DNA of 53,558 bases, the filler included, from Sphacelaria rigidula (taxonomy: Eukaryota): the NCBI GenBank assembly GCA_964200075.2. It is 3 parts of 3 records of this genome, joined end to end, with 100 filler letters (N's around TTAATTAATTAA, not from the genome) between each part and the next. Parts side by side here need not be neighbours in the genome. Positions count along the whole stretch, not along the records: positions 1 to 17,790 come from CAXNAA020000994.1; 2 more parts are not named here. The stretch is one strand, 5' to 3'. The notes under the pieces are model-generated. The model was given only the letters and a program-made list of their open reading frames with translations, had not been told where the DNA came from and made no database searches. Below, piece by piece: positions 6,446 to 53,558 of this stretch. Made by a program: the position numbers and the translations under genes. Numbering within the stretch: position 1 is the stretch's first letter; every line of letters starts with the position of its first letter.

Positions 6446-8080
6446 CACACTCTGGACAATGCAATATGTAATATTTATATTACCCGCTCAATATGTCGAC
6501 GCGTCGGGTGGTCAACATGTATTGGGCGAGCAATATGATTACACGAGAGAGGGTCAATATATAGTGTGCCGTCATTATGCCCAGTCTCGCAAAATGCAAT
6601 ACATATCGACCGAACAATATATCACGACACGCGCCACCTCAATATATATCGGCCGAGTAATATGTTGGTGCCTCACCGCACCAGCACATAAATTGGTCAA
6701 GTAGTATATTGGCTGCCACACGAGGTCAATATATATTAATGATTCAATATACTCAACACTTGAAGCACCAATATATATTGCTGCCCGAATGTGTCGTGCG
6801 TCAATGCGTCCAACATATATTGGGCGGACAATACACGAGGGAACGGACGGTCAAAATACATATTGGCGCAGCAATATATATATATATATATATATATGTA
6901 TTGATTTTCAACACGTAGACTGGAAAGTGTATTGGAATCAGTATGGTGGGCACTTCTATGTTCGCGGGCGCCATTGAAAGATGTATCACCACATCCCGAA
7001 AACGCTCAATATATTGCTTCGCGAGCGTGTTCAATATATATTGGTGTGGCAATAGCTATGCGATGAGCGTGCGTGCGCAATATATATTGGAAAAATATTA
7101 CTTTTGCATGGTTCGCGCTCAATATATATGATGGCAACAACGTGTTCTGCATCGCTTCGACTCAATATATATTGAAAGTTCAATACATACACGGCCGGTA
7201 TGCGCAACAAATATTGAATGTTTTGTTCCCGGAGCAAATGCATATCCAATATATATTGTCATGCATCACTTCACGATCAAGACACGAGCAATATATGTTG
7301 TCGCTTCAATACCTCCGAGGACATCTCAACACACAATATCTTGAAAGGACAACATATTTGCGCTGTTTCCAATACAAAGGATTGGTATCATATTGGAACA
7401 TTATTGTATTGTCCAGGGCATAAGCAACACAGAAACGGTGACCACCGGGGCACCAAAAGACGCATATCGACCCGCTTTTTCTGTCGTCCTCATGTTTACT
7501 GAAGATATATAACGTGCTATGAAGGGGATGGGCGGCCCCGTACCGGTGGCCAGATAGGTATCAGAAGGCATAAATACCGGGCCGTCTCTGCCACCATATG
7601 TTTTTACCCATATATATATATACATATATATATATACACGTCAAACGGATTCGACATCTCTTCGTAGCAATGCACGCGAACTTCTGCCGCTCCTTCGATC
7701 CTCAATCTTCACGGGCTCCGGCATCCACCTCGTCTGGATCTTTCTATAAGTGTACACCATACTCATAATATCCGATATATATTGACCGGCCAATATATTG
7801 GCACCCACGTAGACCCAGTATATACTGACCGGTCAAAATGTTTGTACCAATGCGACCCTACCATGTATTGTTCGTGCAATATGCCGTCACCCACACTGCC
7901 CCAATATATATTGATGGGACAGTATGTATTCACACCCACAATACCAATATATATTGGGAGGGCAATATGTATGCAGTCCAACGATATCAATATATATATA
8001 TATATATATATTGGGCGCGCAATACGTGTGCGATCCAAGGGTACTAACATATATTACGCCGGCAATATATCGCAAAACTT
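6446..8080 (+). repeat. Interspersed element, copy 1, carrying directional 42-43-bp periodic arrays of CAATATATATTG-N6-CAATAT with unique spacers
   Basis: Motif starts at 6513, 6555, 6597, 6640, ~6684, 6727, 6769, 6811, ~6852, then 7032, 7078, 7120, 7163, 7205, 7247, 7289, and 7902, 7945, 7988. Colinear with 13430-15520. Short inverted repeat CTCTGGACAAT (6448) / ATTGTCCAGGG (7408). Confidence 0.85.
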
Positions 8081-10850
8081 CAAGGATCAGAATCTGGGGC
8101 TGGGTATATGCGGTACCCCCGAAAACCGGTCAGCCCGTAAGTCGTTCAATATTGAGTGCAGGCGTGATCTTATTTCGGAATGAGGAGGAGATGCTAAAAA
8201 CATTTCGATCCCCGAAATTTGAAAAAAAACATTTACTGGGATGAACAGGGGCACGCGAAAGCACTTTTGAACATCCCCGACTACGAAAAAATATGAAAAC
8301 CCCCCATTTTCAGCTCAAAACTACTGTACCAGCGGCACAATGCTTGTGAGCAGCAACAGCATAAACATGAACCCTGATCGTTCCCCACTCACCTACTGCA
8401 CTCGCCATGATAGTAAAAGCCATCGCACGACACCATCGCATTGCAAGCCCACTGGGCAACAATCTGTGACGAACTGCCTGCGACGGAACGATTGAAGGTT
8501 AATGGAAGCAAAGGAGGGCGTACGGATGGCATCACCCGTTCGTAAAGGCGGCCGAAGCGAGTACAACATGTGAGTTCAGGCCAATCATTAGACGTGAAAA
8601 GGGGATAGTGGGCCCTACCGATGATTTATGAGTCCCGACCACAATCCCATCGTGCATAACGCATGCACAACACGATACAGAAACGTGGCATGATATTCAG
8701 AAAGCCTGCCTGTCCATCTGCAGAAGTCAGTACTCGATTGCACAAAATATAACACACATGGTCTCATCCTCGCTCCTCCGCCTTTCGAGAATTATTGAAG
8801 CAGAGGATTGAAGTCAGCAGATACTTCTTCGATTGACATATCTCAAACGGAGCTCTTCAACAGGGCAAGCTTTGGAAACCGTCGGCATGACAGTTCAGCA
8901 TACACAGGTGAAAACACCGCTGGAGGCCAGAGCATTCTGGCTTTCTGGTGAAGGTTTTTGACAGATTTTTGAACGGCTTACCTCGCCAAGACGGATCCTC
9001 GGGAATGTCGGGCGCAACATCCGTAGTCCAGCGCGATGCAAACTGGACCAGCTGTTGGTCAACAAAACCGAAGACGCCACGTCTGAAAGCCTTCGTTGTA
9101 GCACCTTGAGTTGTGTCCACCGAGTCCACGCGCAAGAGAAGATAATTGGCATCACAAGCAACAAGGGGAAAAATGACCTCACATGAATACACGAATTCGA
9201 CATACAACACACACTCAGGCGTGCTCAGCACTATCACGTGGAGACACACAATGTATACACCAACGGGTCTGTATGATTTTATCGCGGTATCGTAGCGTTC
9301 GCCCTCTCAAATATTTTTACAGGCATGCTGTACAGTGTCGACACAAAGGGAGTATGGGACCAAAATGACATACGAGCCCGAAGCAGGCAGTGACCCAAAT
9401 AGGGAGAAATCTTGACCGAAGTTGTTGCCACGTGTGGTAAGTCGGTGCTGTATGGATATTTCTAAATTATTTCCGCAGGTACATTCATGTGCGCAGGGTT
9501 TCATCGCAAATGCGCGCTCTACGGGATATACGCAGCCTAGCACTGTTGAGCTCGCGGTCAAACCCCAAGACCCCTCGCAGCAAGCGGGGATTGATGTAGA
9601 AACACGCCACGACTTGCAGCATGAAAGGCACACATTTGACGACCGAAATAGACGTGTACGACTGAAAAAGAAGCCGTCGGTGATTGCAGTTTATGGTGCT
9701 GGACGTGTGGAAAGGTGCTGCGCGTGTGGAAGCACAGCACAGAACCTCGACTAGAAATTTACATGTGACAAGAGGCCGCAGTTTGTATGACTGAGCTTGC
9801 TCGGGGCTCGGGGCATGGTACAAAGCCGAAGAGTGGGGTGCTTGCTTCGTACGGTCGCTGTTACCATGCGACGTCCTTAGTATAGCACAGTACAGTGCAG
9901 CAGTTATTTCTTCCATTTTTTCATGCCATGGACATGACCGTGCTGAGAGTCATGAAACAAACGGGACGTGCTGTACTCGGGAACTGACACAATCCAAATT
10001 GACCATCTGTATAGTCAAGGTGTTAAGCTTCCCCTGACAATTTGTATACATCAACGCAATCGGACACGCTTACTCCGAGTTTGCCATCATCGGACGGAGC
10101 TGATCATTTGAAAGTCTAGGCGCTTTCGACCGCGAGATATACGCCGCTGGAAAGGCCCTGTGGAGCGTACCCAGCAATATATCGCAGCTGTAGAGACAAC
10201 TGCTGGAGAAGCATATTTGTACCTTGATGTTTTCCCCGCGCCTTTCCGGAACGATGCACGCCTTGATCGTTTCCGAAATGATTCGGTATCATGATCAAGA
10301 ATTGTTCTCACATGTGATCTCACATTCTCTTCTCAGTCACGTACCGGGGTTCTGTGAAGCGATTGCTCAACTAAATCAGTGTACCTATTCTACTTGATGC
10401 GCGCATCTTAAATGGTTGTAGACGCGTTTCTTCATTCCGCTGCAACCATAGTCGTTCGTAAATCATCAGGCGCCTGATACAGGGATGAAAGGGACAAGGT
10501 TGAGGTCGGGCAGTCTTCCTGCTGCCAAACGGAAATCTTTGAGCAAGTACTGCTGCGGCCGAAGGGGCACTCGCTCGATATAACCCCAGTAGATGACTCG
10601 GAGAAGAGAATGTGGGATCAAATGTGAAAATGATCATCGAAAACAAGTACTGAGTCATTGTGAAAGCGATCACGCCGGGCATCGTTCTGGCGTGGTGCGG
10701 GAAGAGTTTTAGGATACAAACATGCTTCTACGGCAATACTCGTAGTACAGCTACGACATATCACTCGGTACTTTCCGCGAGGTCTTTCCAGCAGCACAAG
10801 TCTCGCGGTCACAAACACCTGGACCTTTACGCCAACCGCGGGACGGAAAG

Positions 10851-12608
10851 CTAGCAAATGTGACAACGCAAACCCCCTCGAACAAGCTTCTCACCTACAA
10901 GGATCTCGTGTCGCGATTCGATCTCTACACCACCATCATCGTTGGCACCTTGCCTTATACCATCCGCCATTTCCGATGTCTCGCACAGTTCGCGCCGACA
11001 GCCACTACCCGACGGCATCCTCACCCTTTGGAACACCTCGTGGAGCGCACCCTCTTTCCTTCCCTCTTGTAGATCAACATCACCAGGGAATGATGGGGCT
11101 TGCAGCGCTGGCATGACTTGGTCTACAGATAGTACAGCAGTTGTCGGACACAAAATTGCCGGTGGCATCCACGCGTGGCATTGGTCATCCTGGTCCTGCT
11201 CTTGCAAGAAATATCCGGTCGCTTGCTGCTGGTGTTCACAATTGTCCCTTTGCCGCGAAAATACACTCAAGGCGACATGGGCCCGATTATTTGAGCTATA
11301 GGTGTTTTTAACCAACCTTGTACCCCGTTTACCCCGACCGCGATGGCATCTGGAAAGGGGAGAGCTCTTGGGCTTCTTGTTCATGACCTCGGCTGCCGGA
11401 AGGGTGATGTACTCAGATGAATCCTGACTCTTCTTATACCATGCAGGCATCAGTGCAGTTGCCCCTGGTAGTGAGCGCCGCCACCTGAAACTGTGTTCGC
11501 GACTGATATGCGTGTTTGGTGCACGGTTGTTGAGTACATAGTTGTCATCGCTTTTGGTGTACGTCCGTGGGGTTGCAATCGGCAGTGCTTGTTGCTCCCC
11601 CAGAGGCGGACCACAAACAGTTCCGGCGGCGAAGGCGGTAATCGCGATCACAAAAAGCGCAACACAACCAGCCGCTGACATCTCCCCTTTGGCACAGTTG
11701 CTGTTGTTGCGACTGATACTGCCGTCGGTGCCACCGCTGATAAGTCTGCTGAATATTCTCGCTTCCGCCATGCGATTGCGTGTGGCACTGTGGCACCTGT
11801 TCGATGCATGGTGATGATGCGTCTGTTCATCCACCGCGAGCGGCAGCTGAGGGGTCCCCGGTCGCCGATATATCATCGCTCTCGCCTGACGCTTGAGATC
11901 TATCTGCCTGTTACGCGTATGGCCTGGAATTGAACCAGCTTTTACGGTTGTGGTGAAGTGAAACTTGTTCGTCGTTGAGGACTGTTTGTTCAACTCCAAC
12001 GTCGAGCCCTTACACCTCACTCTTTCGTCGGTGTCGCATGATGCGTGGTCACGCGAACATGCTCTCGGTTTCTCTCGGCAGTGTGCCTCATCAGAAGACA
12101 CGCTTTCTTGTAGGCTGTGCCGCTCAGATGCAGCTGCTCTCGTGGCCGCTTTGGATTTGTTGATGGCACTGGCGTCGCCGGGCAATTGTGTCTTGCGTGT
12201 GGCACTAACCGTTACCGTTTTACACAGCGGCACAGCACTGGTATCAGTGGCGGTGTAGGCAGGTGCCAAGTTACGAACCGGTTGGTATTCCATTACGCGA
12301 CAGTCCTCCTCCGTAAGCCTGTCCCCCAGCCATCGACTACGGCGACCTTCCAGCAACGAGCCACAGCTTTCACGTTCGATAGTCAAACCATTGTCACAAC
12401 AACGTCGCCGGGATGTTGTCGACCAGGCCTCCCCAGTTGAAGCCGTAGGAGTAACGTCAAACATGATATTTTCACGCCCTATGGATATTCCTTCCGCGTC
12501 ACTTCGTTCTGCATCCAGGGGCATAACGAACCTGGAAACCCCCGCACAATAGAAGCAAAACACCAGAAAGCAACGGCAGTGATATCCGACGTAACCAGCG
12601 GCTATCAT
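10851..12608 (-). CDS. 585-codon orphan ORF (probably a large first exon); Ser/Arg/Thr-rich with one predicted TM segment
   Basis: 1758-nt stop-free frame, by far the longest in the window. Hydrophobic segment MSAAGCVALFVIAITAFAAGTVCG. Possible GTGAG donor shortly before the stop. No family recognised. Confidence 0.55.
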   Translation of the reverse strand: MIAAGYVGYHCRCFLVFCFYCAGVSRFVMPLDAERSDAEGISIGRENIMFDVTPTASTGEAWSTTSRRRCCDNGLTIERESCGSLLEGRRSRWLGDRLTEEDCRVMEYQPVRNLAPAYTATDTSAVPLCKTVTVSATRKTQLPGDASAINKSKAATRAAASERHSLQESVSSDEAHCREKPRACSRDHASCDTDERVRCKGSTLELNKQSSTTNKFHFTTTVKAGSIPGHTRNRQIDLKRQARAMIYRRPGTPQLPLAVDEQTHHHHASNRCHSATRNRMAEARIFSRLISGGTDGSISRNNSNCAKGEMSAAGCVALFVIAITAFAAGTVCGPPLGEQQALPIATPRTYTKSDDNYVLNNRAPNTHISREHSFRWRRSLPGATALMPAWYKKSQDSSEYITLPAAEVMNKKPKSSPLSRCHRGRGKRGTRLVKNTYSSNNRAHVALSVFSRQRDNCEHQQQATGYFLQEQDQDDQCHAWMPPAILCPTTAVLSVDQVMPALQAPSFPGDVDLQEGRKEGALHEVFQRVRMPSGSGCRRELCETSEMADGIRQGANDDGGVEIESRHEILVGEKLVRGGLRCHIC

Positions 12609-13429
12609 GAGCTATGCGACGAGGCTTCGGGTTCGCGGGGTCGAAGTCTTCCCATAAAACGTCCAGCGCTCAGCAGAATAGACCGAAAAATGACAATTGA
12701 TTGCACGTTGTCAGGGTACACTTTTAAACACACTTCAATAAAAGACTCAGCTGCCCACGCTGTGACAACGGTGTGCAGGCGCACGTAGCATCTGAACAGG
12801 GAGGGTATCGCCTGAACGCACGACTTCTACACCCAAAGGGGGCTAGTGAAAACTCAACGGAATGCTGGTGCAGCATCCCGGAAAAGAAGCATACGAAGAC
12901 CACCATCGAACAGCCCGGACACGTTTTGTGGCCCAAAATCAGCCTCGTTCGCACCTCTAGCAGTGTCTTGAAAACAGTGCATATCCTTGCTCCGAGTACA
13001 AAAACGTGATTTTAACACTTGGGCCAATTTCATACCTGGAGGTCTGATTGCAAACTGACCCTCTCCTTACATAGATTTAGATAACCCGAACACTCTGCCA
13101 ATTTTCGCCTCGTAGTTTTGACTCGTCTGCTGTGTCTGAACTGAGAGATACGTCATTCCTTGATCGAAGGCGGAGTTTGTTCGGTCCTGGCGTTATTTAG
13201 TAACCACATGTGTTCGACGCTCCTGACTCGCGGTCAACTTGTAACACAACTTCGAAAACGGCGGAAAACCTCGCTCCGGTGTCGGGAACACACTTTCAAG
13301 ACGTGAACTAACTTCATTCCAAAAGTCTGAAAGCGCCTGGCAGCCTCATGACTTTGTCCTAGCGTACCCCCTCCCCGCCAAGGTTGACCTTGAAGGACAA
13401 AAATGGGTGTGGTGTCGCAATTGGAAGAT

Positions 13430-15520
13430 GTGCCCTGAACAATGCGACATTTTGTGTATATTGCCAGGCCAAGATGTCGACGCGTCGCGTATTTCATATA
13501 TATTGGCCGAGCAATATGATGGCAAGAGACACAGGCCAATATATGTTGTGCCATCAATATGACAAGGCTCGCGACATGCAATATACACCAACCGAACAAT
13601 ATATCACGACACGTGCCACCTCAATATATATTGACCGAGTATTATGTCGGTGCGGTAAGGCATCAATATGCACTTGTCGACTTGTATATTGCCTGCCACA
13701 CGAGGTACTCAACAGCCGAAGCGGAAATATATGTTGCCGCCCCGATATGTCGTGCATCAATACGTCCGAAATATATTGGGCGAACAATACGCGAGAGAAT
13801 CGACCATCACAATATATTTGGTGGAGCAACATAAAATACTGGTTTAATTTGTATATTGGGAAGTGCATATAGAGGAACTACTATAGAGTGCACTTTTGTG
13901 CTCGCGGGCGCCATTGAGAGGCGATCATATGCCGAAAACGCTCAATATATCCCTTCGCGAGCGTGTCCGATATATATTGTATATATATATATATATCTAC
14001 ACTATGCAGTGAGCGTACGCAATACGTATTGGGCAATACTTGTGGTTTTCTTGTGTTCAATATATATTTCCGCAACAGTGTGTTATGTATCGCTTAGACT
14101 CATTATGTATTGACATTTTAATTTGTACACGACCGGCATGAGGCCAATTCTTACAGGTTTGGGAAAATAATCCTCTTGAAAACTGCCTTTTGGGCCCTTC
14201 TCCGTCATTTTACGCCAGCAGAGGACTGCGCCGATGTTGACACCTTGGGATAACTAGCTCTACTCCTTGAGAACGTTCCATTGCAAATTTGCGTCCCCCG
14301 CCGGCAGCAGTATGATTTTTGGCGAAAGTTGCATTTTTAAAAAAAAAACCCGGTCAAGTGATGAAAAAACTGGCTGTTTTTACATCACTTGACCGCTTGT
14401 TATTGAAGCTCAAGGTTGGCCAAAAATACAACTACGGCCAGGGGGAAACGTAAAACTGTCCTGGAACGCTCTTAACGAGTAGAGCAAGTCATTCCGAGGT
14501 GTCGACATCCGCCTAGCCCTCTTTTCGGGCTTAAAAAGACCGAGAAGGACCCGAAAGGCAGTTTTCAACAGGACGTTTTTCTCAAACCCATAATAATCGG
14601 TCTAAACAAGATATATTGAACGGTTTGATCCCAGAGCAAGTGCATGTCCAATGCATATCAGCATGTATTACTTCACGATCATGACGCGAGAAATATGTAT
14701 TGTCGCCTAAAAATATCCGAGGATATCTCAACACAACATACATTGTAAGGGCAATATTTCCACCTTTTTTACAGTATAAGGTATTGACGCCAGTATCGGA
14801 ATATAGTGGATTGTCCAGGGCACGAGCAAGTGTTGTCTACGGTATAAGCAACGTAGCAATGGTGATCAGAAGGGTATCAAAAAGGCGTATATCGACCAGC
14901 TTTTTCTTCCGCCCTTTCCTACAGAACAAACTAGGAAACAGGGATGTTCGGAAGAGACGACTCGACGGCCCTCACCTCCATTTTTGTCTATCGAACTGGG
15001 TGGAAATGACGCTCGAATAACTTCCTGAACGCCAAGAAAACAGTGTATCTCTTCAATTACATTGAATGATAGATTCGTGGAACGGGATGACTTCCAGGAT
15101 GCGGCAAAGCACAGTGCTTGAATAATATGGTTCGGTAGAACATATAGTCGGCATCGATGCGTCCGCCAAATGCATAGTGGGTGGGTGATGTACTGTCGCA
15201 CACGCTACCCTGATATATGTGCTGAACTAGCAATATGTCGCGACCCATACGACCCCAATATATATGTTGACCGGGTGATATGTTCTCACCTATGCGACCG
15301 CAATATATATTGGTCGTGCAACATGTCGTCGCCCACACGGCCCCAATATATTTTGACGGGACAATGTGTGGGCAATCCCACGATCTCAATATACAGTGGG
15401 CGAGAAATATATTTGCAGTCCCTCGACACGAATATATATTGGGTGGGCAATACGTGCGCAGTCCCAGGGTACCAATATATATTTATATATATTACGCCGG
15501 ATATATCTCGCAATAATCCA
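13430..15520 (+). repeat. Interspersed element, copy 2, of the CAATATATATTG array family, interrupted by a MITE
   Basis: Unit-by-unit homology to 6446-8080, for example ACCGAACAATATATCACGACACGYGCCACCTCAATATATAT is shared. GTGCCCTGAACAAT / ATTGTCCAGGGCAC inverted repeat at ~13430 and ~14810. Confidence 0.85.
14142..14602. mobile_element. Tourist/PIF-Harbinger-like foldback MITE (~460 bp)
   Basis: Termini GGCCAATTCTTACAGGTTTGGG / CTCAAACCCATAATAATCGGTC. Inverted along its whole length (centre CGGTCAAGTGATG...CATCACTTGACCG). Flanked by TGA/TAA. Absent from the homologous site in copy 1 (~7200). Confidence 0.8.
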
Positions 15521-15759
15521 ACATGATCAACTAATACATTTTGGAAACATTTTGCACTGTGCAGGGTGTGAAGATGCGTCACCTCTCGCATGTACGGGAA
15601 CATGTGTGTAGCGAATATCTGAAAGCATGCCCTACACGATGATTGACTCAATCCGACCTCCAACAGCTCACAAAGTCGAAGACGGATGTCTCTTCGAAAG
15701 CAAACACCAGACGTTAATATTCGTACAAGCCCCAAAGTCATTCTCCATTCTACTTCTCA

Positions 15760-16890
15760 TGTCCCCGACCGCCGCCCGACTGGGGATGATTGTGTCAGGG
15801 TAGCTAATCAACCCCAGCCAGCGAACACACGACCCACGCGTGGGAGAGGGTAAAATCGCCCGCAGGTTAGTCTGCGTTTTTCTGTGGGCGGTGGTGCAAC
15901 ACACAGTATCACCGGTCGATGCCCACCGTGTTAAACTCAATGCTCAACCTCCCAGCTGCGGAGTTTTACCTTGTACTGATATCTCAACTCAATCCCGCAG
16001 GAGCAGAGTTTCGCCCGAGGTTCGGGCACTGTCACTGAAAGCACGTCGACGGAGATGAGACACGTGAAAGTAAGTACCAGATTCGGCGGAATGATGATAG
16101 CGGTCGACGCGGGCTGGGAGAGCTGCACCCTCCTCGTGAGACGAAGGGAGAGGCAAGTACCGTGCCCGACGTGCCAGGGGAAAATTGGAACATGAAACAA
16201 AAACTCACACGTTAAGAAAGAAGTAGAAGGAGACCGCAAAGGAGGGCAGAACGAAGAGAAATATGTAAATGTACATGAGGCTAGAGCTAGGCGGCGTCAG
16301 GGGAGCTCAAAGTGGCGACCTACAATGTCCGTAAACTGTCTCCCCCGGGGAAAAACGGGGTTGGACATGCTTTTGTGATTCTACAAAAATGTCCAGCGGT
16401 GGGATGTGACGTCATCGGGCTGCAGGGGGGTAAGGAGGCCGGGCCGAACCGAGTTTGTTGCCGCAGATATCGTGTCTTCTGCTGCGGGACGGAAGGGTGC
16501 AGCGGAAGCGCTGGGGAAGATGGGGTTTGGTTGGCAGTTATAGAGTCAATAATCAATGAGGCGGCGGGGACTCGGGCGCTCATCAGAGACTGGCTCATGT
16601 CGATGACTGTCAACCTCGCGGGCAAGTCAAACGCTGCCACGCGTGTAGTTGCCTACGCCCCGACAGACACATCGACGTCAAGACAAGTGAGATCCATGTT
16701 CTGGACTGAGTTGGACAGCATTGTGAACCGAGTCCCCAACAAACGCCACCTGTTTATGACAGTGGACGCTAACGCTTGGACTGGTGTACGAACAGGCGAG
16801 TAGAAAGGCAAAAGGGTGTGGTCATACGGCCGGGATTCCGGAACCGGAGACAGTAACGGCATATTTTCCCTGCAATGTGCACGTGACAAC
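15760..16890 (+). mobile_element. RTE-clade LINE, 5' part: degenerate AP-endonuclease domain (ORF remnant 16312-16803) plus putative 5' UTR
   Basis: APE motifs VATYNVR, DVIGLQ, VVAYAPTD, FWTELD, VDANAWTG, followed by YGRD..SNG. In-frame stop and a MITE insertion at 16891. The 5' boundary is approximate. Confidence 0.85.
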
Positions 16891-17030
16891 TAGGGATGGG
16901 CACCGGATAGGAAAATCGAAAAACCGGTTACCGGATAAGGAGGCTTTATTTAAAAAAACAAGAACCGTAAACCGTTTTTTTTCAGCCCGTTTAACCGGTT
17001 CACCGGAAAACCGGTTTCACCGGATAAGCA
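16891..17030 (+). mobile_element. hAT-like MITE end inserted into the LINE, with ACCGGT/AACCG subterminal repeats
   Basis: Begins TAGGGATGGGCACCGG exactly where LINE coding similarity stops. Many AAACCGGTT-like motifs follow. The partner terminus was not found and may lie in the gap. Confidence 0.55.
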
Positions 17031-17790
17031 AGGGAAAACGCCTCCAAATCATTGAAACGCAGGTGAATTCGGCGTTGTTGTCGATTGTTTCGTGTGTGGT
17101 GGGTGATGGATACTTTCGAACACACCCATTGCCGGTAACGGCTACGTTCAATCTTACACCTCCGCACTCCGCACTCCGCACCCGTGCAGCACCTGTCGAA
17201 CTTTACAGCACAGTGGCTGACGACTGGTGACAAAGAATTTTTATGCGTGATAGGAAATGGTGTTCGTGATTACGTGAACAGCTGCTGTTCAAATCTTGCA
17301 CCTATTCGTACCAAACACAGGGCGTCAAAAATTGAAAATAAAAACTATGCTCCGGAGTAGTAGATAGTAGTGGGAACCTGAACCCTTCTTTTTCTAATTT
17401 ATTCGTCATCGGCGATTTTCTCACGCTCTTCCGCTCGTCACCGCCCATCACATTGAAGATTTGAAGATACTTGTATCCGCTCCACATTTAATGAAAACAA
17501 AAATCATTTGTAATCAACATTGGGTGACTTACGTGCTGACCGATCATCGGGGGTCCTGCAATTTTCCAGCACAGATTTTGATTCTTTGGGATTTTAGGCC
17601 GATCGAGCCTGTCCCGCTAGTTGTTGTAGAGAAGTGTGCAATTTCATTTTTTTGGCATTCTACCTATTCACTGCACCTCCGCAGTGTTAACACTATATTC
17701 GTGAGATTCAGAACGTGGTTTCAGATTCAGAGTCAGACCCGAAACAGATGACTTTCCCGTCGATTTTGACATCGCCACAGTTCGAGGAGT

Positions 17791-17890
17791 NNNNNNNNNN
17801 NNNNNNNNNNNNNNNNNNNNNNNNNNNNNNNNNNTTAATTAATTAANNNNNNNNNNNNNNNNNNNNNNNNNNNNNNNNNNNNNNNNNNNN
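17791..17890. other. Assembly gap with six-frame-stop linker TTAATTAATTAA
   Basis: N-run flanking TTAATTAATTAA; the same construct occurs at 35679-35778. Confidence 0.97.
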
Positions 17891-18315
17891 CCCTCAAGAA
17901 GACCGGATGCCAAAGTGCCGAAGCCATTGTCCGGCAAAGACGACTGCTGTTTGCGGGAGCCCTGGCTAGGCAACCAGACGGACGACTACCGAAGCGATTA
18001 GCATTCGGAACACCAGTCGAGGGGGAGGATCCAGGACCAGTGTGCCCGGAATAAAACTGGCTGGAGTAACCGAGGGACGATCTCCACGCTTCCGGAGCCA
18101 CAGACGGCTCTACGGACGACAACCGCCAGACATTCGGAACTGACCATGTCCTATGGACCTCAGCAGCGAATAGGGAGGGGGGGTTGCCGTGCTACTCAGG
18201 AGTGCTGCAGGAAGCGAAGAGGTTCATGACCTCATGGCACAGAGACGAAGAGGAGGCCAGCCGACGGCGTGCGATTGAACAGGAGACTAAACAAGTCCAC
18301 ATAACACGGCAATGA
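17891..18315 (+). mobile_element. RTE-clade LINE ORF C-terminal remnant (pseudogenised)
   Basis: Translates as LKKTGCQSAEAIVRQRRLLFAGALARQPDGRLPKRLAFG...W...DDL, the typical RTE post-RT tail, with in-frame stops. Confidence 0.85.
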
Positions 18316-18674
18316 CGACGGTCCCGAGAAGGGGGGGGGGGGGTTGAACCCCCCTGATGAGGGGTGTTGTTATTTCATGCGGTGCTTGTCTTGATACACC
18401 TGGTATTCTCGTCCGTATGGCTGTCACTCGAGAGGTCGAAAGATGAAACCTTGCGATTCTCGATGAGATGAAACCTCGCGATTTTTAGTTCTTTGGTTGA
18501 TGGTATTTGGGGCTTCGAGTCTCGCCCGTAGTCGGACCCTATGTCCATTTCTACTTGGCCTCACACGTCGAGTTGAGAAGCCGGATGCCACCCCCTGAGA
18601 TCCGAATGGCCACCTGCGGCACCGGATCTTTTGAGGTTAGCCGTATGTATTCTCCTTCTTTATTATTCATCACC

Positions 18675-19217
18675 GGCAAAAAGTATATCCACGTATATAG
18701 ACGGATCCTTATTTCCACCGTCACCTTTCATCATGACCGATGCCGCGTTGTTCTTTTCAATTCGGGAGCGCACATTTTTTTATCTGGTGCCTGTTACCGA
18801 TGTTTGCGAACAAAGTGACGCCTTCACGTCCACCGGAGTGCAGGCAGTAGTCAGTGGTCGTATCCTCTGCATCTGCATCCACTGTCATGTACGTGCATCT
18901 GCATGTAGCCTCGAGACGGAAACGTGCTGTACTGTATTGGCAAAGCACAGCTACCTACTGTGCTCGCGAGTACGGCCCGTGCTTGTAACCTGGCACTATC
19001 GTATTATTACTGTATTGTCTGTGCAGGATATGACCACTGACTACTGCCTGCACTCCGGTGCACGTGAAGGCGTCACTTTGTTTGCAAACATCGGTAACAG
19101 GCACCAGATTAAAAAAAATTGGGCTCCCGAATCGAAAAGAACAACGCGGGATTGGTCATGACAAAAGGTGACGGTGGAAATGAGGATCCACCTATATAGG
19201 TGGATATACTTCTTGCC
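18675..19217. mobile_element. Foldback MITE with ~195-bp inverted arms
   Basis: Arm 18675-18871 (GGCAAAAAGTATATCCACG...) is a high-identity reverse complement of 19022-19217 (...GGTGGATATACTTCTTGCC). Confidence 0.9.
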
Positions 19218-19324
19218 TCTATCCCCCATTAGTTATCCCTGTTTCGCTTAAATCGCGTTTTGTGAGTTTTAATTTAGGTCTCTTTTGTTTTTTACTGGCG
19301 TTGTTTGATTCCTCACACCTTGTT

Positions 19325-19417
19325 TTAGGTATCTAGCCTGTGAGCACGGAAGGCGTCCGCGTCAGATGCCCAAGACGAATGTACCGCGCAGATATCGGAA
19401 GGGGTTTTAAGGTGGAG

Positions 19418-19453
<36 letters not shown>
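19325..19453 (+). mobile_element. Non-LTR retrotransposon 3' end with (CAA)n tail, probably the end of the RTE
   Basis: GC-rich 3'-UTR-like segment ending in a (CAA)n tract at 19419-19453. Short-tandem tails are typical of RTE elements. Confidence 0.6.
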
Positions 19454-19526
19454 TCGCGTTTGTTCTTGTAATTAGGCTGGAGTCTAAAAAATGATGGAAA
19501 ATTCCATGTTTTGTACGGAATGGTAA

Positions 19527-19766
19527 GGCCGCTTCTTATAGACTGAAAAAAAACTGTCTGAAAACTGCTTTTTTGAACGTTTCATCACGGATTCTTGGAG
19601 GGATACGAAGTATTGGACAAACGTGCTGGAATCGTCGTGAAAAATAGAGCAAATCTTTCCGAAGGGGCCAAATCCGCCAAGGCCCGTATCCCTCCAAGAA
19701 TCCGTGATGAAAGGTTCAAAAAAGCAGTTTTCAGACAGTTTTTTCTTCAGTCTATAAGAAGCGCCC
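19527..19766. mobile_element. Tourist/PIF-like MITE; internal-deletion derivative of the 43721-44457 family
   Basis: TAA|GGCCGCTTCTTATAGACTG ... CAGTCTATAAGAAGCGCCC|TGA, with arms 19530-19607 and 19685-19763. The interior matches 44310-44375. Confidence 0.85.
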
Positions 19767-31255: not shown

Positions 31256-32033
31256 TGTTAAGAGGTCACAGATGCCACTGAGCTGAACAGTCAGCGCTGA
31301 CTGATTCGCTCAGAGGTATCTGTGACACTTAGCGCTGGCTACCAAGCTCAGTGGTATCTGTGACACTTGGCGCTGGCTACTAAGCTCAATGGTATCTGTG
31401 ACATCTTCTAGGCGAATGCCGAAATTTCAGACCTCCTCCCATTTTGTTTATTTTTCGATAATAATGGCCCTTAATAAAAAAAGCTCATCTCTGGGGTTCG
31501 ATTTTCCCCACGATGATTTCTTCTTGACCAGTCCTTTCTGAGAAAAACAATACAAAGGTTCACGATGAAAGCGACGGTAAGTGAGTATGCAGCACGCTCG
31601 GTCAGAAGAAGCAAGTATATCCTGCTTGTAAAACGTTCGCCTTCACGGTCGACGAGGGAAAGGGAACGCTGAACCCCTCTCGCGATAAAAAACGAGACAA
31701 GCACCGCAGGAGGTTGGTGGATTACTAAAAAAATAAAACTCTGTGTTGGCCTTCCTCCTGTATGATCCCAGCTGATGCGCCCACATATATCGAAAGGTAT
31801 GAACTGGCTTCCAGAATAGATGGATAAGAACACACGACACACACACTTGGGTGAGAACGGTGCTGATTACCGGGACGGCAACTCTGGAGTGAATACTCGC
31901 CGGATCCAATGGCTCAACAGTATGAAGGACTCCAGGATTAGCTTGTGTTAGCATGTCAGATATACTCGTACCACTCAGAGCTCAACAGCCAGCGCTGGCT
32001 GATCAGCTCAGTGATATCTGTGACATCTCAACA
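31256..32033. mobile_element. Non-autonomous Ginger-like DNA transposon (TGT...ACA, 4-bp TSD) with a nested SINE
   Basis: AGGG|TGTTAAGAGGTCACAGATGCCACTGAGC ... GCTCAGTGATATCTGTGACATCTCAACA|AGGG. Subterminal AGCGCT-centred palindromes and ~38-bp tandem units at 31290-31404. Confidence 0.75.
31480..31847 (+). mobile_element. tRNA-derived SINE copy with CA-rich tail
   Basis: B-box-like GGTTCGATT at ~31495. The body GGTCGACGAGGGAAAGGG...TCGCGATAAAAAA...AAGCACCGCA is shared with 35398-35590. Confidence 0.7.

Positions 32034-35594: not shown

Positions 35595-35646
<52 letters not shown>
35330..35646 (+). mobile_element. SINE body with long (CA)n tail
   Basis: Homologous to 31640-31847 and 19860-20030; ends in a (CA)n tract at ~35596-35646. 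Confidence 0.75.
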
Positions 35647-35652
<6 letters not shown>

Positions 35653-46223: not shown

Positions 46224-49200
46224 TCACGTATCCTTGGACTTCTTCTTGGGTGGGCGGTAGAGCGCAATTACAACCGCGTGGTCACGCTCGTAAGGTTCGA
46301 GGGTAACTTGCTCCTTGGGCTTGAAGTTCTCCGTCTTCAGCTTCGAGACCTGTCACGCAAGTGAACAAAAAAAGCAGCGGCACAGGCGAGCGCAAAAAAG
46401 GAGAGAACGCTTCTTCAATTGATTGAATTCGCTAGAGACAAAGTTACACAACCCGCAGAGGTTCCTGCGTAAAATCAGTTTCGAAGGCTGACCAACGAGT
46501 TGGGATTCCGTAACCATTGCCTGATGATAGAAAGGCGGTCAAGACGTACACTCTGTCACCTCTCGGGGCCTGGGAGTAACTAAGGCATGTTGACGTCACA
46601 CTATCAGCCCTTGGAACCCCGTGTAACGAATTGTGAGACCGCTCGTGAGAAGAGGGTGTCATGTTTTCACAGGACTTTCGTGAGAACTGTTTCCTCTTTT
46701 AGATACGATTATTTCTCTCGAACTACGATTGGCTTGCAGCGATAATATTCGACACCCTGGATTATGGCAAAGGATTACATCGTCAAAAAATGTGCCACGT
46801 ACAGTTATGGGCGCGCCTGACCCCCCAAAATGAGCCAAAAAAGTGTCACCGACCAAAAGCACGAACAGACCGGAGATCTCGTTCATCCCCTGATTATGCA
46901 CGCCGTAGAATCCCCCAAGTACTTGTGATTTGAGTGGGGTTTCCACTTGACGATTTCCAATTTTTGTTGTCCCGGGCTACGAACCACGGCGTACCTAGGC
47001 TACTCACCGGCGTGTATTTGCCCAAGCTACAATCTGGAAAGATTGTGGAACTAGAGGAGTTGTGGTGATTGAGAAAATCGCAAAAAAAACATGTTTTTTC
47101 CACTCAATTCGTTATAAAACTCGAATCCCAATGAGATTAAAAAATTCGATTACCGAGTTTGTAGTTGCCGTCTTGGCGCAGATGATACAAAAAATCGCAT
47201 CCCAATCGATGGCCTTGACGATGAATAATTGGGGTAACCGTTTGGGCTACGGGCGCAAACCAGCACCTCCAACCCTCGCCGGTTTTCACGACATGCGAAA
47301 ACGTCACCCCTGTCAACGGCCTCAGAATAGATTACACCCATGGATAACTCTTGCTACTGCAGATGGTTGATACATCGCATGTGTGGAATGTTCGGCAGGT
47401 GTAGAATTTGAACCTTTGACCCAACCCCTGGAGGCTTCCGTGCCCTGCGGATATTTACCCCCATCTGTGCATCGCTTGTGATAGTGGCAAGAGTAGCGCT
47501 CGTTCTCCTGCACCCGGTGCCATCACCACGCCACCTGGCGGCAAGTTTGGACAAACTCTGAACTGAAGGAAAAAAGAAAGCCACAGAGCATGCTAGAAGC
47601 ACAGTTCCCATGAAAAGATCCGGATTCCGGTGTTCATAATAACAAGATGCATCAACTTACTCTCCCCAATGGTCAACTATACTGCGTCAAGGCGACACAG
47701 AAGACAGCATAAAGTCGTCAGCCCACTTTTGCTAAAGCCACATGGCACCGGAGACCCAGTCATGTCCTTCAGTGCACCAACCCGTCGTAAGACACGCGTC
47801 CGTTGTATCGGTATAGTGGTGGGAGTCCGATGAAAATCATGCATATTCATGAAATGCAAAGGCATACCCACGGAACAACAAATACCCTTGCACAGAGCGA
47901 GTCATTTATCCGCTAAAATTGTAGAACGATGAACATGACGAGGAAGTCGACCAACATCCGCCCAACCTACATGACACACCCGGCGACTGTACTCCACTGG
48001 TCTGTGTAAGGGCCCTCCTCGTCGTAGTTCCTCAGTACATATGGTTCTGTCGGATATTGACCATATGATTTTGTAAAAATAAATCGTTCAGCGTTCCCGT
48101 TTCAAGCGTTGGGCTACAAATCATCATGATTTATATTACTTGGTTTGAATGTGTACAACAAGGATCGGATTTCAAATAGCATTGACAGTCCCGTGGGCTC
48201 CTCGTACGAGCAGAGCGTGTTTTCGTTTAAATCGGCGCCACAGGCACGGATTTGGGGTCTACCAAGGCCTCACTTTGTTCAAAGAATATATGTACCACCC
48301 TTACCCGAGAGTCCTCGGTATGCGTTGGGTTGGATCAACCCAACTAGCCTCCTGGCATTTCATCGTATCGCAAGCATGGACGAAAAGCTACGCAGTGGCA
48401 TGCAGCATATGTGAAACAACAACAGAAGTAACGGTAGGGCTCTCTGTCGTTCTCTTCCGATGACGTTCGGCATATTTTACCCGACGAGCCTGAATAAGCC
48501 CCAAAAGTAGATCTGTTCGTGTGTCTTTTCGTGATTTTGGTCGGTGACACTTTTTTTGCCCAGTGTGGGGGGTCAGGCGCGCCCATAACAGTATCGTCTA
48601 ATGCAATAGACGCAATAGTGGATATTGCGGTACGCGAAAGATTTCACACGTCGGACAGATCAGCTCCCTATAGATCGAGCTAGCTCTTTTTCAGCGCGAC
48701 TCCCTTGTGAGCAGTTATGAGAGCTACATGAGCTACGCATGTTTTTACTGGGGTGAGCTATGAGAGCTGTACGGGTTACGCACGTTTGCGATAGGTGAGC
48801 TACCAACCCTTAGCTCATCAGCTCATATTCGTCCTGGGTGAGCTATGAGAGCTGTCTGAGCTACGCATGTTTGCCCTGGATGAGCTACCAACTCGTAGCT
48901 CATCAGCGCATGTTCACCTTGTGTTGAGCTATCGGACGTAGCTCACATCTACATGTTTGACTACAAGGGAGCTACCGCCCGCAGATGAGGTGGCTCATAA
49001 CCTGTCCCACGTATGGAACATTTTTTGGCGATGTAATGCGCTGTCCAGAGTGTGTAACATTCACCATCGGGTAGTGGCTGAGAACTGCTGTCCTCCTATT
49101 GTTCACGATCTTCAAACTCATCCAAAGGTGCTTGGCATAGGGTACAGTACATCAGGTACGCCGGGTTTTCAGCGGATTCCAAGTATCTCTTGCTCCAGGG

Positions 49201-52200: not shown

Positions 52201-53525
52201 TACTCAAATGTATACGGACCCGCACTGCTTTGCTTCACGTGCCACTGCGGAACAAGACGGGGCACCTCAGTTCGAGGGCTCGCAAGCAAGGGAAGGACAG
52301 TAATCCAAGTCATGGTGTGAAAAAAGTCGTGCTGGCCGGGCAACGAAACAAGGCCAAGATATAGTACTTTTGATAGGCATGCACGCTTGTTGCCGCGATG
52401 CGATGCGATAGGTGAATGATTCAATGCTAACACGGTGGCCACACCACATATTCGAAGTTCGCATGGGCAGGGATTCACGTCGCAGGCCCGTGCTGTGGGC
52501 CAGGCCCTTTCACAACTTCATCATCGGCACGCCTTTTGCCTCGTCGAAACACTAATCCCCAACAACCACTTTGAATAACGGTGAGTGGGGCTGCCTCTGT
52601 CTCGTGCGAGGCTTTCACAAAGACAGACGACGACTGGCTAGGACGAGCCACGTGCGGGTTGATGGCATCGAGAGTTGCCCTGAAAAAGTAGCTTTTATAT
52701 CTTTTTTTCTTCTATTATGCCGCTCTTCGTGACGCCGCTTCCCGAAAATCAGTCCAGTGTGGTGTGCAAAAAAACGCGAGGCGAGACCAACTACACTTCA
52801 CTATACCAAGAATAAAACAACGATAAAACTTGACACGCTAAAAAATATCCAAGTCCGGATTCCACACCACCGATCTGCTCCAGAACACAAGCGAAGATAT
52901 CATCCTTGTCTCCTGTTCGCCCGCTCTGTATCAAGAACACGGAGATCTCTGGGCTAGCGAAAAGCAAGGAATACCTTTCGACCACTCAATTGTCTGTGAG
53001 CAACCTCATGCCAATGGTGAGGAGGGAAAAGCTCCATAATCCTATTTCACCGATGCTCCTCGGTGAAGTGCATCTCTCGAGCATTGGATCATGACTCATC
53101 AGCACTACGTAGCTCGTAAACCTTGGTAAATTCTAGCTTACTCACGTCCTGATGATTTCGGGGGACCGAAACCGACGAACAAAATGTACGTTGAACGTCG
53201 GTATTCAAATCTACGAATCTGTTTGCCTTGGCCGATTACTCATCACTTCGCTCGACCCGAAGGGCGGTGCACGGCGAGCAGATAGCGAGCGAGCTACCTT
53301 GAAAATATTATGAAATTGAAACAACTAGAAAATAAGTCTTCGACGTTGTCTTACTTTTCCCGGGGCGCTGTTTAGTGTGCACAGCGCATCTTCTTTTCCT
53401 CGCGCCACAAACACCCCCTCGTGTCGGTGTGGTTCAACCACAACCTTGGCGCCCCCCTTCATTCCACCTTTGGCCCCCGCCAACCCCCCCAGGCCCCCCC
53501 CCCGGCGCCCGCCCCCCCCGCCCCG

Positions 53526-53558
<33 letters not shown>
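46224..53558 (-). CDS. FBL: rRNA 2'-O-methyltransferase fibrillarin (Nop1), 5'-truncated at the window end
   Basis: All phase-0 GT-AG exons: 53355->53558 ([32 protein letters not shown]), 51965-52123 ([21 protein letters not shown]), 51356-51595 ([46 protein letters not shown]), 50488-50607 ([30 protein letters not shown]), 46224-46349 (..[18 protein letters not shown]). Confidence 0.98.
46802..48591. mobile_element. Non-autonomous Tc1/mariner-like element (TA TSD) in the last fibrillarin intron
   Basis: TA|CAGTTATGGGCGCGCCTGACCCCCC..AAAAAAGTGTCACCGACCAAAA ... TTTTGGTCGGTGACACTTTTTT..GGGGGGTCAGGCGCGCCCATAACAG|TA, TIR about 65-70 bp. No intact transposase seen. Confidence 0.85.
48642..49018. 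mobile_element. MITE-like element with GAGCTA motif arrays and an 85-bp tandem duplication
   Basis: Ends CACACGTCGGACAG / CTGTCCCACGTATG. Units at ~48751-48835 and ~48836-48920 both begin GGGTGAGCTATGAGAGCTGT. Confidence 0.7.
49138..49290. mobile_element. Small MITE-like element with GTAC-rich interior
   Basis: Perfect 10-bp TIR TAGGGTACAG / CTGTACCCTA. Confidence 0.5.

What the first reader, a model, noticed from the sequence alone, without database searches (positions are those of the whole stretch)
6513..8070. Directional 42-43-bp array: palindrome CAATATATATTG, N6, CAATAT, then a unique 17-18-nt spacer (~24 units)
Seen: three blocks (6513-6880, 7032-7345, ~7772-8070) of same-orientation units. 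The 12-nt palindrome and a 6-nt half-site are conserved at fixed spacing, while the 6-nt and 17-18-nt intervals share little similarity between units. This is unlike an ordinary minisatellite, where the whole unit is similar. The period equals 4 helical turns (4 x 10.5 bp), so all sites face one side of the helix. Inference: either a phased protein-binding lattice (transposase subterminal sites or another DNA-binding protein) or a processed small-RNA array. The repeat-spacerA-repeat-spacerB layout is formally reminiscent of CRISPR/TIGR-type arrays, but no effector gene is visible here.
Basis: partly seen in the sequence, partly recalled or inferred. Interest (0 to 1): 0.85.

Follow-up and report, generated by a model that had tools for sequence, protein, structure and literature searches.

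The report
Phased palindrome array in dispersed repeat
The strictly spaced array of a short palindromic motif is real, but it belongs to a non-coding repeated element present twice in this window, and it looks like decaying docking sites for a DNA-binding protein rather than a CRISPR-like RNA array.

Summary
The array is real. CAATATATATTG with at most 1 mismatch occurs 22 times against 0.09 expected. About 25 units of 42-43 bp lie in three same-orientation blocks, and only the 12-mer and a CAATAT(GT) half-site 6 bp downstream carry information.

It is 77% identical and has the same "spacers" in the same order. The spacers are therefore inherited, not acquired. Between the two copies, motif and spacer positions have diverged equally (79.6% against 75.6%, p=0.17). 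The inferred common ancestor had 93-95% consensus motifs. Block 3 spacers still resemble each other (z=6.7).

Six unnamed ORFs from other short contigs are translations of related arrays with the same period.

Best reading: a multi-copy, non-coding element of about 1.64 kb, built from old tandem repeats. A composite dimer-plus-half binding site was kept by selection while the element propagated, and the two copies here are decaying relics.

I found no TIRs, transposase, RT, Cas or Tas gene, or RNA signal. The element class and the binding protein remain unknown.

The parts
6453..8089 (+). Copy A of the repeated element (1637 bp), defined as the stretch homologous to copy B
   Evidence: blastn finds three colinear pieces at 70-75% identity. 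Global alignment gives 1130/1463 aligned columns identical. The flanks are not homologous.
6471..6871 (+). Array block A1: 10 units of 42-43 bp. The unit at 6684 is decayed.
   Evidence: Unit list and intervals; information profile.
6872..6901 (.). (TA)n run grown out of the half-site of the last A1 unit; private to copy A
   Evidence: TRF; absent from B in the alignment.
6902..7031 (+). Linker 1, not repeated, shared with B at about 80% identity
   Evidence: 6904-7031: 0.80 over 117 aligned positions.
7032..7374 (+). Array block A2: 8 units (intervals 46, 42, 43, 42+42, 42, 43)
7375..7772 (+). Linker 2 (about 400 bp, includes a (TA)n run at 7609-7638). Its right part is poorly alignable with B but matches unnamed relatives P0124 and P0127.
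   Evidence: tblastn: P0124 head to 7641-7763 (E 9e-4) and P0127 to 7506-7568 (E 6e-4).
7773..8087 (+). Array block A3: 7 units with a strict 43-bp period, apart from a 14-bp (TA)n expansion at 7988-8001. The spacers still resemble each other.
13436..15570 (+). Copy B. Homology with A runs 13436-15529. Homology with other family members continues to about 15570. About 20 units are recognisable, in blocks 13452-13809, 14058-14140 plus 14607-14776, and 15213-15525.
   Evidence: P0123 and P0124 tails match 15511-15570 (E 0.009 and 0.003).
14141..14603 (.). 463-bp foldback (MITE-like) insertion that interrupts block B2. It is not part of the family.
   Evidence: 83-nt arms, 78% complementary (I1). 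The whole insert is 74% self-complementary. It is absent from A.

Best explanation
The array is the body of a multi-copy, non-coding repeat element of about 1.64 kb, in what looks like a eukaryotic, possibly stramenopile, genome. The element consists of three blocks of an old 42-43-bp tandem repeat separated by two unique linkers.

Each unit carries a composite site. It has a 12-bp palindrome, CAATATATATTG, which is the shape of site read by a protein dimer. A third half-site, CAATAT(GT), lies 6 bp downstream in one fixed orientation.

While the element was propagating, the site and its spacing of four helical turns were kept by selection and the rest of each unit drifted to near-randomness. 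Inferred mechanism: the sites lie on one face of the helix and act in cis as a platform. On it, many copies of one sequence-specific DNA-binding protein, encoded elsewhere, assemble cooperatively. That protein could be the element's own mobilising, replicating or tethering protein, or a host protein it exploits.

The two copies in this window are relics. Since they separated, motif and spacers have decayed at the same neutral rate.

Shown here: the anatomy, the second copy, inheritance of the spacers, neutral decay, and the existence of further copies elsewhere. Inferred: protein binding, cooperativity and the cis role in propagation.
For: Motif significance: 22 hits against 0.09 expected.

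Conservation among units: only positions 1-12 and 19-24/26 of the unit are conserved, and the unit is directional.

Period: 42 or 43 bp in 17 of 18 single steps in A and 11 of 13 in B.

Second copy: colinear, with 1130/1463 aligned columns identical.

Decay since the A/B split:
- Motif positions are 331/416 identical and spacer positions 431/570 (Fisher p=0.17).
- In 20 orthologous unit pairs there are 360 motif positions. 260 are consensus in both copies, 28 are off only in A, 46 are off only in B, and 26 are off in both, 17 of them with the same base. The common ancestor was therefore about 93-95% consensus, although its spacers were already unrelated.

Mutation bias excluded: outside the motif, A/T and G/C sites are equally diverged (76.7% against 75.8%), and CpG observed/expected is 1.2-1.3.

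Multi-copy family:
- 6 unnamed ORFs (E 4e-13 to 5e-6) come from six different short contigs.
- All 42 tblastn HSPs from them fall in A or B.
- 10 of 19 distances between motif-type tetrapeptides are 14-15 aa, and 2 are 29 aa.
- Against these relatives, motif codons are 157/269 identical and spacer codons 155/368 (p=6e-5).

Known systems with the same architecture are protein platforms. F sopC has 12 x 43 bp units, each with a 16-bp inverted repeat, spaced at four helical turns so the sites share one face (PMC3177203, abstract and passages). The EBV family of repeats has 29 x 30 bp units with a 12-bp palindromic core (PMC3218044, passages).
Against: - No binding protein is identified. The window encodes no recognisable DNA-binding, transposase or recombinase domain.
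- The element's true ends are unknown. No TIR and no target-site duplication were seen. The right end shared by A and B (GATCA) is not the family's end.
- A against B shows no excess conservation of the motif, so there is no evidence of function at this locus.
- The family-wide excess comes from 12 non-independent alignments. Alignments slipped by one unit would match motifs but not spacers and would inflate it.
- Only block 3 was used as the query for other copies. An ORF across block B1 found nothing.
- The source genome could not be scanned, so copy number, young copies and any autonomous partner are unknown.
Confidence: 0.5

Rival explanations
1. A and B are the two long terminal repeats of one very old, non-autonomous LTR-type element (LARD-like) spanning 6453-15529. 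The arrays would then be U3 enhancer or binding repeats.
For: Two copies lie in the same orientation 7 kb apart and flank 5.35 kb of other DNA. The shared stretch begins TG(G/A)AC and ends GATCA in both copies. The flanks outside are unrelated.
Against: - The copies are only 77% identical.
- The 5 bp outside the ends differ (CACTC against ACTAA; read).
- No gag, RT, RNase H or integrase was found. None of 114 frames in 8090-19644 passed a Pfam cut-off, and none of the frames of 110 aa or more did.
- I recognised no primer-binding site or polypurine tract by eye.
- Two unnamed relatives continue in homology with B for about 41 bp beyond GATCA, whereas A does not. GATCA is therefore not a conserved terminus, unless those relatives are orthologues of the B locus.
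Confidence: 0.15
2. The array is a functionless decayed minisatellite. The conserved 12-mer persists only because it is a (TA)n-like, slippage-prone, mutation-resistant core.
For: - Block 3 spacers still resemble each other (z=6.7), and there is a weak signal in block 2.
- TRF detects a 43-bp period.
- (TA)n runs have grown out of three motif cores.
- A against B shows no constraint on the motif.
Against: - The flanking C/A and T/G of the palindrome, and a separate half-site at a fixed +18 offset, are conserved as well (0.8-1.5 bits). Slippage cannot maintain those.
- Outside the motif, A/T and G/C sites diverge equally and CpG is not depleted. The motif decays as fast as the spacers once copies are fixed.
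- Neutral evolution would therefore not leave 93-95% consensus motifs beside spacers at 26-39% identity in the ancestor.
Confidence: 0.15
3. The element derives from an integrated episome or large DNA virus. The array would be its maintenance, partition or origin region, like plasmid sopC or the herpesvirus oriP family of repeats, read by a protein of that replicon.
For: The architecture is the same as sopC (43-bp period, palindromic site, four helical turns) and the EBV FR (12-bp palindromic core in a 30-bp unit).
Against: - No viral or plasmid gene appears anywhere in the 53.6-kb window.
- blastn of copy A against 72,556 plasmid and 50,697 phage records gives no match.
- In 185,579 prokaryotic genomes the 24-nt pattern occurs only singly. 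82 loci were found, and all 80 listed have one match.
- The element is multi-copy and short.
- Collections of eukaryotic viruses were closed, so phaeovirus-type genomes were not compared.
Confidence: 0.1
4. The array is transcribed and processed into about 42-nt guide-like or phased small RNAs, as a CRISPR/TIGR-like or piRNA/phasiRNA-like locus.
For: The layout is formally repeat-spacer-repeat-spacer. The 317-nt block 3 folds better than shuffles (z=-2.5 on the plus strand, -3.4 on the minus strand).
Against: - The fold signal is pairing among copies of a self-complementary motif. Eight single units give z from -0.1 to -1.6.
- Spacers are inherited in order in both copies and in unnamed relatives (spacer codons 42% identical).
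- Spacers have no 12-mer match elsewhere in the window.
- There are no Rfam matches at gathering level.
- No Cas or Nop-domain (Tas) gene is present.
- The unit and repeat dimensions differ from TIGR arrays, which have 36-nt units and repeats that start UG and end CCA (PMC12045711 passages).
Confidence: 0.02

Closest known systems
F-plasmid centromere sopC (ParB/SopB-type partition site)
   Same: Direct tandem units of 43 bp, each with one palindromic dimer site. The spacing of four helical turns puts all sites on one face (PMC3177203, abstract and passages).
   Different: sopC is bacterial and lies beside sopAB. Its whole 43-bp unit is well conserved, and it has a 16-bp inverted repeat with no extra half-site. 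Here the genome looks eukaryotic, there is no partner gene, the spacers are random, there are three blocks with linkers, and the element is multi-copy. There is no sequence similarity to plasmids.
EBV oriP family of repeats (EBNA1 sites)
   Same: About 29 tandem units, each with a 12-bp palindromic core (TAGCATATGCTA) and a variable remainder. It is a protein-tethering platform (PMC3218044 passages).
   Different: The FR has a 30-bp unit and two sub-regions of opposite orientation, and it is part of a viral origin. No viral context is present here.
Subterminal transposase-binding repeats of foldback/MULE, hAT and CACTA transposons
   Same: Many short binding motifs are separated by unconserved linkers, and more copies give stronger transposase binding. 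Muta1 has 9 x 12-bp repeats with 3-4-bp linkers (PMC5499845 passages). hAT elements have many subterminal repeats (PMC6188088 passage).
   Different: Those arrays sit inside terminal inverted repeats and are mirror-imaged at the two ends. Here no TIR exists, all 25 units point one way, the arrays fill most of the element, and the period is a strict 42-43 bp.
IS607-family ends (serine transposase filament on subterminal repeats)
   Same: The transposon lacks TIRs and TSDs. Its dimeric transposase binds multiple subterminal repeats cooperatively and forms a nucleoprotein filament. The authors state that related sequences have been reported in eukaryotes and their viruses (PMC6188088 abstract and passages).
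   Different: No serine recombinase gene is present here. IS607 ends carry few repeats over tens of bp, not 25 over 1.6 kb. This is a resemblance of logic only.
Non-autonomous Helentron/Helitron elements with central tandem repeats (Cg_HINE)
   Same: These are dispersed, non-coding, asymmetric elements whose body is a short satellite-like array between unique flanks (PMC7492417 abstract).
   Different: In those elements the whole monomer is similar between units. Helitron-type termini could not be tested here because the ends are undefined.
CRISPR and TIGR arrays
   Same: Only the formal alternation of conserved and variable segments.
   Different: See the membership test: every defining feature that could be tested fails.

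Membership tests
CRISPR array | Near-identical repeats of about 23-55 nt separated by spacers of similar length (feature recalled, textbook) | tested here: not met
   The conserved parts are 12 nt and 6-8 nt. Only 9 of the 22 hits with at most 1 mismatch are exact 12-mers.
CRISPR array | Spacers acquired independently, so related arrays differ in spacer content | tested here: not met
   Copies A and B share the spacers in the same order, with 431/570 positions identical.
CRISPR array | Adjacent cas genes in a prokaryotic or viral host | tested here: not met
   Pfam found fibrillarin only among 86 frames of 110 aa or more. None of 114 shorter frames next to the arrays passed a cut-off. The fibrillarin exon is closest to eukaryotic proteins.
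TIGR-Tas | 36-nt units with edge and loop repeats that begin UG and end CCA (PMC12045711 passages) | tested here: not met
   The units are 42-43 nt. The repeats are CAATATATATTG and CAATAT(GT).
TIGR-Tas | Neighbouring gene for a Nop-domain Tas protein | tested here: not met
   No Nop-domain hit. The only Pfam hit is a fibrillarin exon 43 kb away.
Cut-and-paste DNA transposon with subterminal repeats (hAT, CACTA, Mutator, foldback) | Terminal inverted repeats | tested here: not met
   No inverted pair joins the ends of A or of B. The reported pairs are TA runs or motif-to-motif matches.
Cut-and-paste DNA transposon with subterminal repeats (hAT, CACTA, Mutator, foldback) | Binding-site clusters in opposite orientation at the two ends | tested here: not met
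   The half-site is always downstream on the plus strand, and the mirror positions carry at most 0.2 bits.
Cut-and-paste DNA transposon with subterminal repeats (hAT, CACTA, Mutator, foldback) | Target-site duplication of superfamily-specific length | tested here: inconclusive
   No duplication is seen next to the A/B homology limits, but the true ends are uncertain.
Cut-and-paste DNA transposon with subterminal repeats (hAT, CACTA, Mutator, foldback) | Autonomous copies encoding the transposase | not testable with these tools
   The source genome is not available. None is present in the window.
LTR retrotransposon / LARD | Two direct terminal repeats bounding an internal region | tested here: met
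   A (6453-8089) and B (13436-15529) lie in the same orientation.
LTR retrotransposon / LARD | Identical LTR limits (TG...CA) with a flanking target-site duplication | tested here: not met
   The shared stretch runs TG...CA, but the flanking 5-mers are CACTC and ACTAA. Relatives also extend past B's CA.
LTR retrotransposon / LARD | PBS and PPT; gag/pol remnants (absent in LARDs) | tested here: inconclusive
   No RT, IN, RNase H or gag. The PBS and PPT were judged by eye only, and no tRNA set for this organism was available (one search found no tRNA in the window).
Helitron/Helentron non-autonomous element | Defined 5' and 3' termini with a 3' hairpin and insertion at A/T or TT sites (features recalled) | tested here: inconclusive
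   The ends are not defined. A/B homology stops at different points relative to the family.
Minisatellite | Head-to-tail units similar over their whole length | tested here: inconclusive
   This is met weakly in block 3 (TRF 79% over 2.3 copies; spacer identity 0.39). It is not met in block 1 (0.278 against 0.258).
ParB/sopC-type centromere | Array adjacent to parA/parB-type genes on a replicon | tested here: not met
   No such genes in the window. No plasmid similarity. No arrays of the pattern in prokaryotic genomes.

The most novel reading that the evidence does not exclude
The element could represent an undescribed kind of eukaryotic mobile or episome-derived DNA that lacks terminal inverted repeats. 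It would be recognised through a unidirectional, sopC/oriP-FR-style lattice of palindrome-plus-half-site units spaced at four helical turns. On that lattice a still unknown dimeric protein would polymerise into a filament to mobilise, replicate or tether the element. The protein might, for instance, be a serine-recombinase-like or virus-derived factor.
Probability: 0.1. Interest if true: 0.7.

Novelty: new variant of a known kind. Interest (0 to 1): 0.35.

Why it matters
If the reading is right, the site CAATATATATTG-N6-CAATAT is a ready-made bait for finding a sequence-specific DNA-binding protein in a poorly studied eukaryotic lineage. That protein is probably the mobilising factor of an unclassified repeat family.

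The pair of copies also shows how selection during propagation and neutral decay after insertion leave different signatures on the same array.

The result also removes a false lead, because nothing here supports a eukaryotic CRISPR/TIGR-like guide array.

As it stands this is an unclassified, decayed repeat, so its immediate importance is modest.

Tried and rejected
1. TG...CA as true element termini. This was rejected because two unnamed relatives continue with B to about 15570 while A stops at 8089. The flanks of A and B are unrelated: local alignment scores were 25 against null maxima of 26 and 30.

2. Higher-order repeat (the linker after block 2 resembling the sequence after block 3). The best score was 26, equal to the null maximum of 26, so it is not significant.

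3. Terminal inverted repeats: none found.

4. Coding capacity. Pfam on 86 frames of 110 aa or more across the window gave one hit, fibrillarin. On 114 frames (45-170 aa) in 8090-19644 it gave five weak hits (E 0.022-0.083), all below curated cut-offs.

5. The 586-codon frame between the copies as the element's protein. It matched only its own record and has no Pfam domain. The Atlas model has pLDDT 0.27 and no usable neighbour. It was rejected as uninformative.

6. An ORF across block B1 as a query for other copies: no hit.

7. RNA families: 0 at gathering level in the whole window. Six hits at E 0.36-0.72, far below gathering scores, lie on TA-rich stretches. No tRNA was found.

8. Literature. 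The 12-mer occurs in 0 of about 8.4 million full texts. A search for Tetrahymena Tlr1 42-bp repeats, a resemblance I recalled, found no paper containing '42-bp', so I do not use it.

9. Prokaryotic counterparts: 82 single-match loci and no arrays. Plasmid and phage blastn gave no match.

10. Organism. The fibrillarin exon is 93-95% identical to unnamed marine-eukaryote transcripts, 89% to Aureoumbra and 86% to Blastocystis. That points to a eukaryote, perhaps a stramenopile. I did not pursue it further.

Not checked:
- Eukaryotic viral and metagenome DNA collections, which were closed.
- The source genome, which was not available.
- The DNA of the contigs behind P0123-P0128, for which there was no fetching tool.
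Full report
**1. Is it there?**

Yes. CAATATATATTG with at most one mismatch occurs 22 times in the 53.6-kb window, against 0.09 expected from dinucleotide-preserving shuffles. None of 100 shuffles reached 22.

I scored every position against the template 12-mer-N6-CAATAT, which has 18 specified positions. The units form three blocks: 6471-6871 (10 units), 7032-7374 (8) and 7773-8087 (7).

Of 18 single-step intervals in this copy, 7 are 42 bp, 10 are 43 bp and 1 is 46 bp. Block 3 is strictly 43 bp.

A column-wise information profile over the 25 units shows 0.8-1.7 bits at positions 1-12 and 19-24, with a T at position 26, and about 0 bits elsewhere. The mirror-image positions upstream of the palindrome carry at most 0.2 bits. 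The half-site therefore gives every unit the same polarity.

**2.

All 22 motif hits fall into two places. The second is 13436-15529. blastn and a global alignment show it is a colinear second copy (B) of the same element (A, 6453-8089). The three blastn pieces are 70-75% identical, and 1130 of 1463 aligned columns are identical.

B carries a 463-bp foldback insertion at 14141-14603. The flanks of A and B are unrelated.

The 'unique spacers' are thus present twice, in the same order. They are inherited sequence, not acquired sequence.

**3. Are the spacers really unrelated?**

Mostly, but not entirely. The table gives the mean pairwise identity of the 18-nt spacers against composition-matched shuffles.

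| Units | Observed | Null | z | Shuffles reaching observed |
|---|---|---|---|---|
| Block 1 | 0.278 | 0.258 | 1.2 | 64/500 |
| Block 2 | 0.304 | 0.247 | 2.9 | 2/500 |
| Block 3 | 0.394 | 0.255 | 6.7 | 0/500 |
| All 24 units | 0.294 | 0.252 | 7.2 | 0/500 |

I left out unit 6854 because its spacer is replaced by a (TA)n run. TRF also reports a 43-bp period at 7901-7997 with 79% matches.

The array therefore began as an ordinary tandem repeat. Block 3 is the youngest part.

**4. Selection or mutation bias?**

Between A and B, motif positions are 331/416 identical (79.6%). Spacer positions are 431/570 (75.6%), and non-array sequence is 346/448 (77.2%). Motif against spacer gives Fisher p=0.17.

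In 20 orthologous unit pairs there are 360 motif positions. Of these, 260 are consensus in both copies, 28 are off only in A, 46 are off only in B, and 26 are off in both, 17 of them with the same base. The common ancestor therefore had about 93-95% consensus motifs next to spacers that were already near random. Since then the motifs have decayed like everything else.

Outside the motif, A/T and G/C sites are equally diverged (76.7% against 75.8%), and CpG is not depleted (observed/expected 1.2-1.3). A mutation-resistant AT core therefore cannot explain why the motif was retained. Slippage could keep a TA core. It could not keep the outer C/A...T/G of the palindrome or a half-site at a fixed +18 offset.

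The simplest account is purifying selection on the composite site in the lineage that was still making copies, followed by release from that selection in the fixed copies seen here.

**5. Is it a family?**

A stop-free frame across linker 2 and block 3 (7668-8180) was searched against 1.84 billion representative proteins. It found 6 unnamed ORFs with E from 4e-13 to 5e-6. Each is a singleton from a different short contig of 0.9-2.4 kb.

These ORFs are translations of related arrays. The palindrome reads QYIL, NIYW or IYIG depending on frame. Of 19 distances between such tetrapeptides, 10 are 14-15 aa and 2 are 29 aa, which is the same period of about 43 nt.

All 42 tblastn HSPs of these ORFs on the window lie in A or B. 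Spacer codons are 155/368 identical (42%), so the spacers are homologous across the family. Motif codons are 157/269 identical (58%; p=6e-5). That excess fits constraint during propagation. It rests, however, on 12 non-independent alignments and could be inflated by alignments slipped by one unit.

The relatives also show that the element is modular. P0124 and P0127 share A's version of linker 2, and P0128 shares B's version. P0123 and P0124 continue with B's right flank to about 15570, where A has already diverged at 8089. The right end of the family is therefore not the GATCA that A and B share.

**6. What class of element?**

Unresolved.
- No terminal inverted repeats were found.
- No target-site duplication was seen at the homology limits.
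- No Pfam domain was found in or around the element. Of 86 long frames, one matched, and that was fibrillarin 43 kb away. None of 114 shorter frames passed a cut-off.
- No Rfam family or tRNA was found.
- There is no similarity to plasmid or phage records.
- In prokaryotic genomes the pattern occurs only singly.

Two same-orientation copies 7 kb apart suggest an LTR-like pair. Several points argue against that: the unequal ends, the differing flanking 5-mers, the 23% divergence and the absence of any retroelement remnant. I give it 0.15.

The 586-codon frame between the copies has only its own record, no domain and a disordered predicted model. Nothing links it to the arrays.

**7. How it most likely works**

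The shape of the site is two abutting inverted half-sites plus a third direct half-site 6 bp away. It repeats every four helical turns. That is the shape of known protein platforms.

F sopC has 12 units of 43 bp, each with a 16-bp inverted repeat bound by a SopB dimer. The authors point out that 43 bp is four turns, which puts all dimers on one face (PMC3177203, abstract and passages). The EBV oriP family of repeats has 29 units of 30 bp with a 12-bp palindromic core for EBNA1 (PMC3218044, passages).

In transposons, more subterminal repeats give stronger transposase binding and more excision (Muta1; PMC5499845 passages). TIR-less IS607-family ends are read by dimers that polymerise over several subterminal repeats (PMC6188088, abstract and passages). 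Dispersed non-coding elements whose body is a tandem array are also known, such as the Helentron-type Cg_HINE elements (PMC7492417 abstract).

I therefore commit, at about 0.5, to a cis-acting, same-face, cooperative binding platform for a dimeric DNA-binding protein encoded elsewhere. The element would have needed it for its own propagation, and it is no longer maintained in these two copies. Binding, cooperativity and the identity of the protein are inference.

**8. The RNA, CRISPR and TIGR idea**

Block 3 folds somewhat better than shuffles (z=-2.5 and -3.4). This is pairing among copies of a self-complementary motif. Eight single units give z between -0.1 and -1.6.

The spacers have no 12-mer match elsewhere in the window. 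TIGR arrays have 36-nt units, repeats that start UG and end CCA, and a neighbouring Nop-domain gene in prokaryotes or phages (PMC12045711 passages). None of that holds here.

Only RNA-seq could exclude transcription. Nothing in the sequence asks for it.

**9. Verdict**

The binding-lattice reading holds, and the guide-RNA reading does not.

This is an unclassified, decayed, multi-copy non-coding element with an unusually regular, unidirectional palindrome-plus-half-site lattice. I rate it a new variant of a known kind, of moderate interest (0.35).

The bold reading, a eukaryotic TIR-less element that uses a sopC/FR-like lattice, is not excluded. I give it about 0.1.

Noticed in passing
window 14141-14603: A 463-bp foldback (MITE-like) insertion inside copy B. 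Its arms are 83 nt and 78% complementary, and the whole insert is 74% self-complementary. It is absent from copy A at the corresponding point (about 7202). No other copy occurs in the window.
   Followed up: partly
window 10111-10827: A second inverted-repeat structure lies between the two copies. Its arms are about 260 nt and 70% complementary, with a tighter 30-nt pair at 10305-10334 and 10601-10630.
   Followed up: no
window 10854-12611 (-): A 586-codon stop-free frame that by my own estimate is far longer than chance allows. Its only database match is its own 507-aa record. It has no relatives and no Pfam domain, and the Atlas model has pLDDT 0.27. It is either an orphan gene or a non-coding frame.
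   Followed up: partly
window 51290-51757 (-): A fibrillarin exon, the only Pfam hit in the window (E 1.8e-43). It is 93-95% identical to unnamed marine-eukaryote transcripts, 89% to Aureoumbra lagunensis and 86% to Blastocystis. This suggests a eukaryotic, perhaps stramenopile, source.
   Followed up: partly
window 6872-6901, 7988-8011, 13970-13996: (TA)n microsatellite runs sit exactly on motif cores. Each is private to one copy, so the palindrome core seeds slippage expansions after insertion.
   Followed up: partly
window 48751-48915; 31308-31403; 35596-35647; 53472-53558: Other repeats: an 85-bp unit x1.9 (83% matches), a 38-bp unit x2.5 (93% matches), (AC)26, and a C-rich tract running off the end of the window.
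   Followed up: no
window 7375-7772 versus 14777-15212: The linker before block 3 exists in two versions. A's version is shared with the unnamed ORFs P0124 and P0127, and B's version with P0128. The family is therefore modular or has sub-families.
   Followed up: partly
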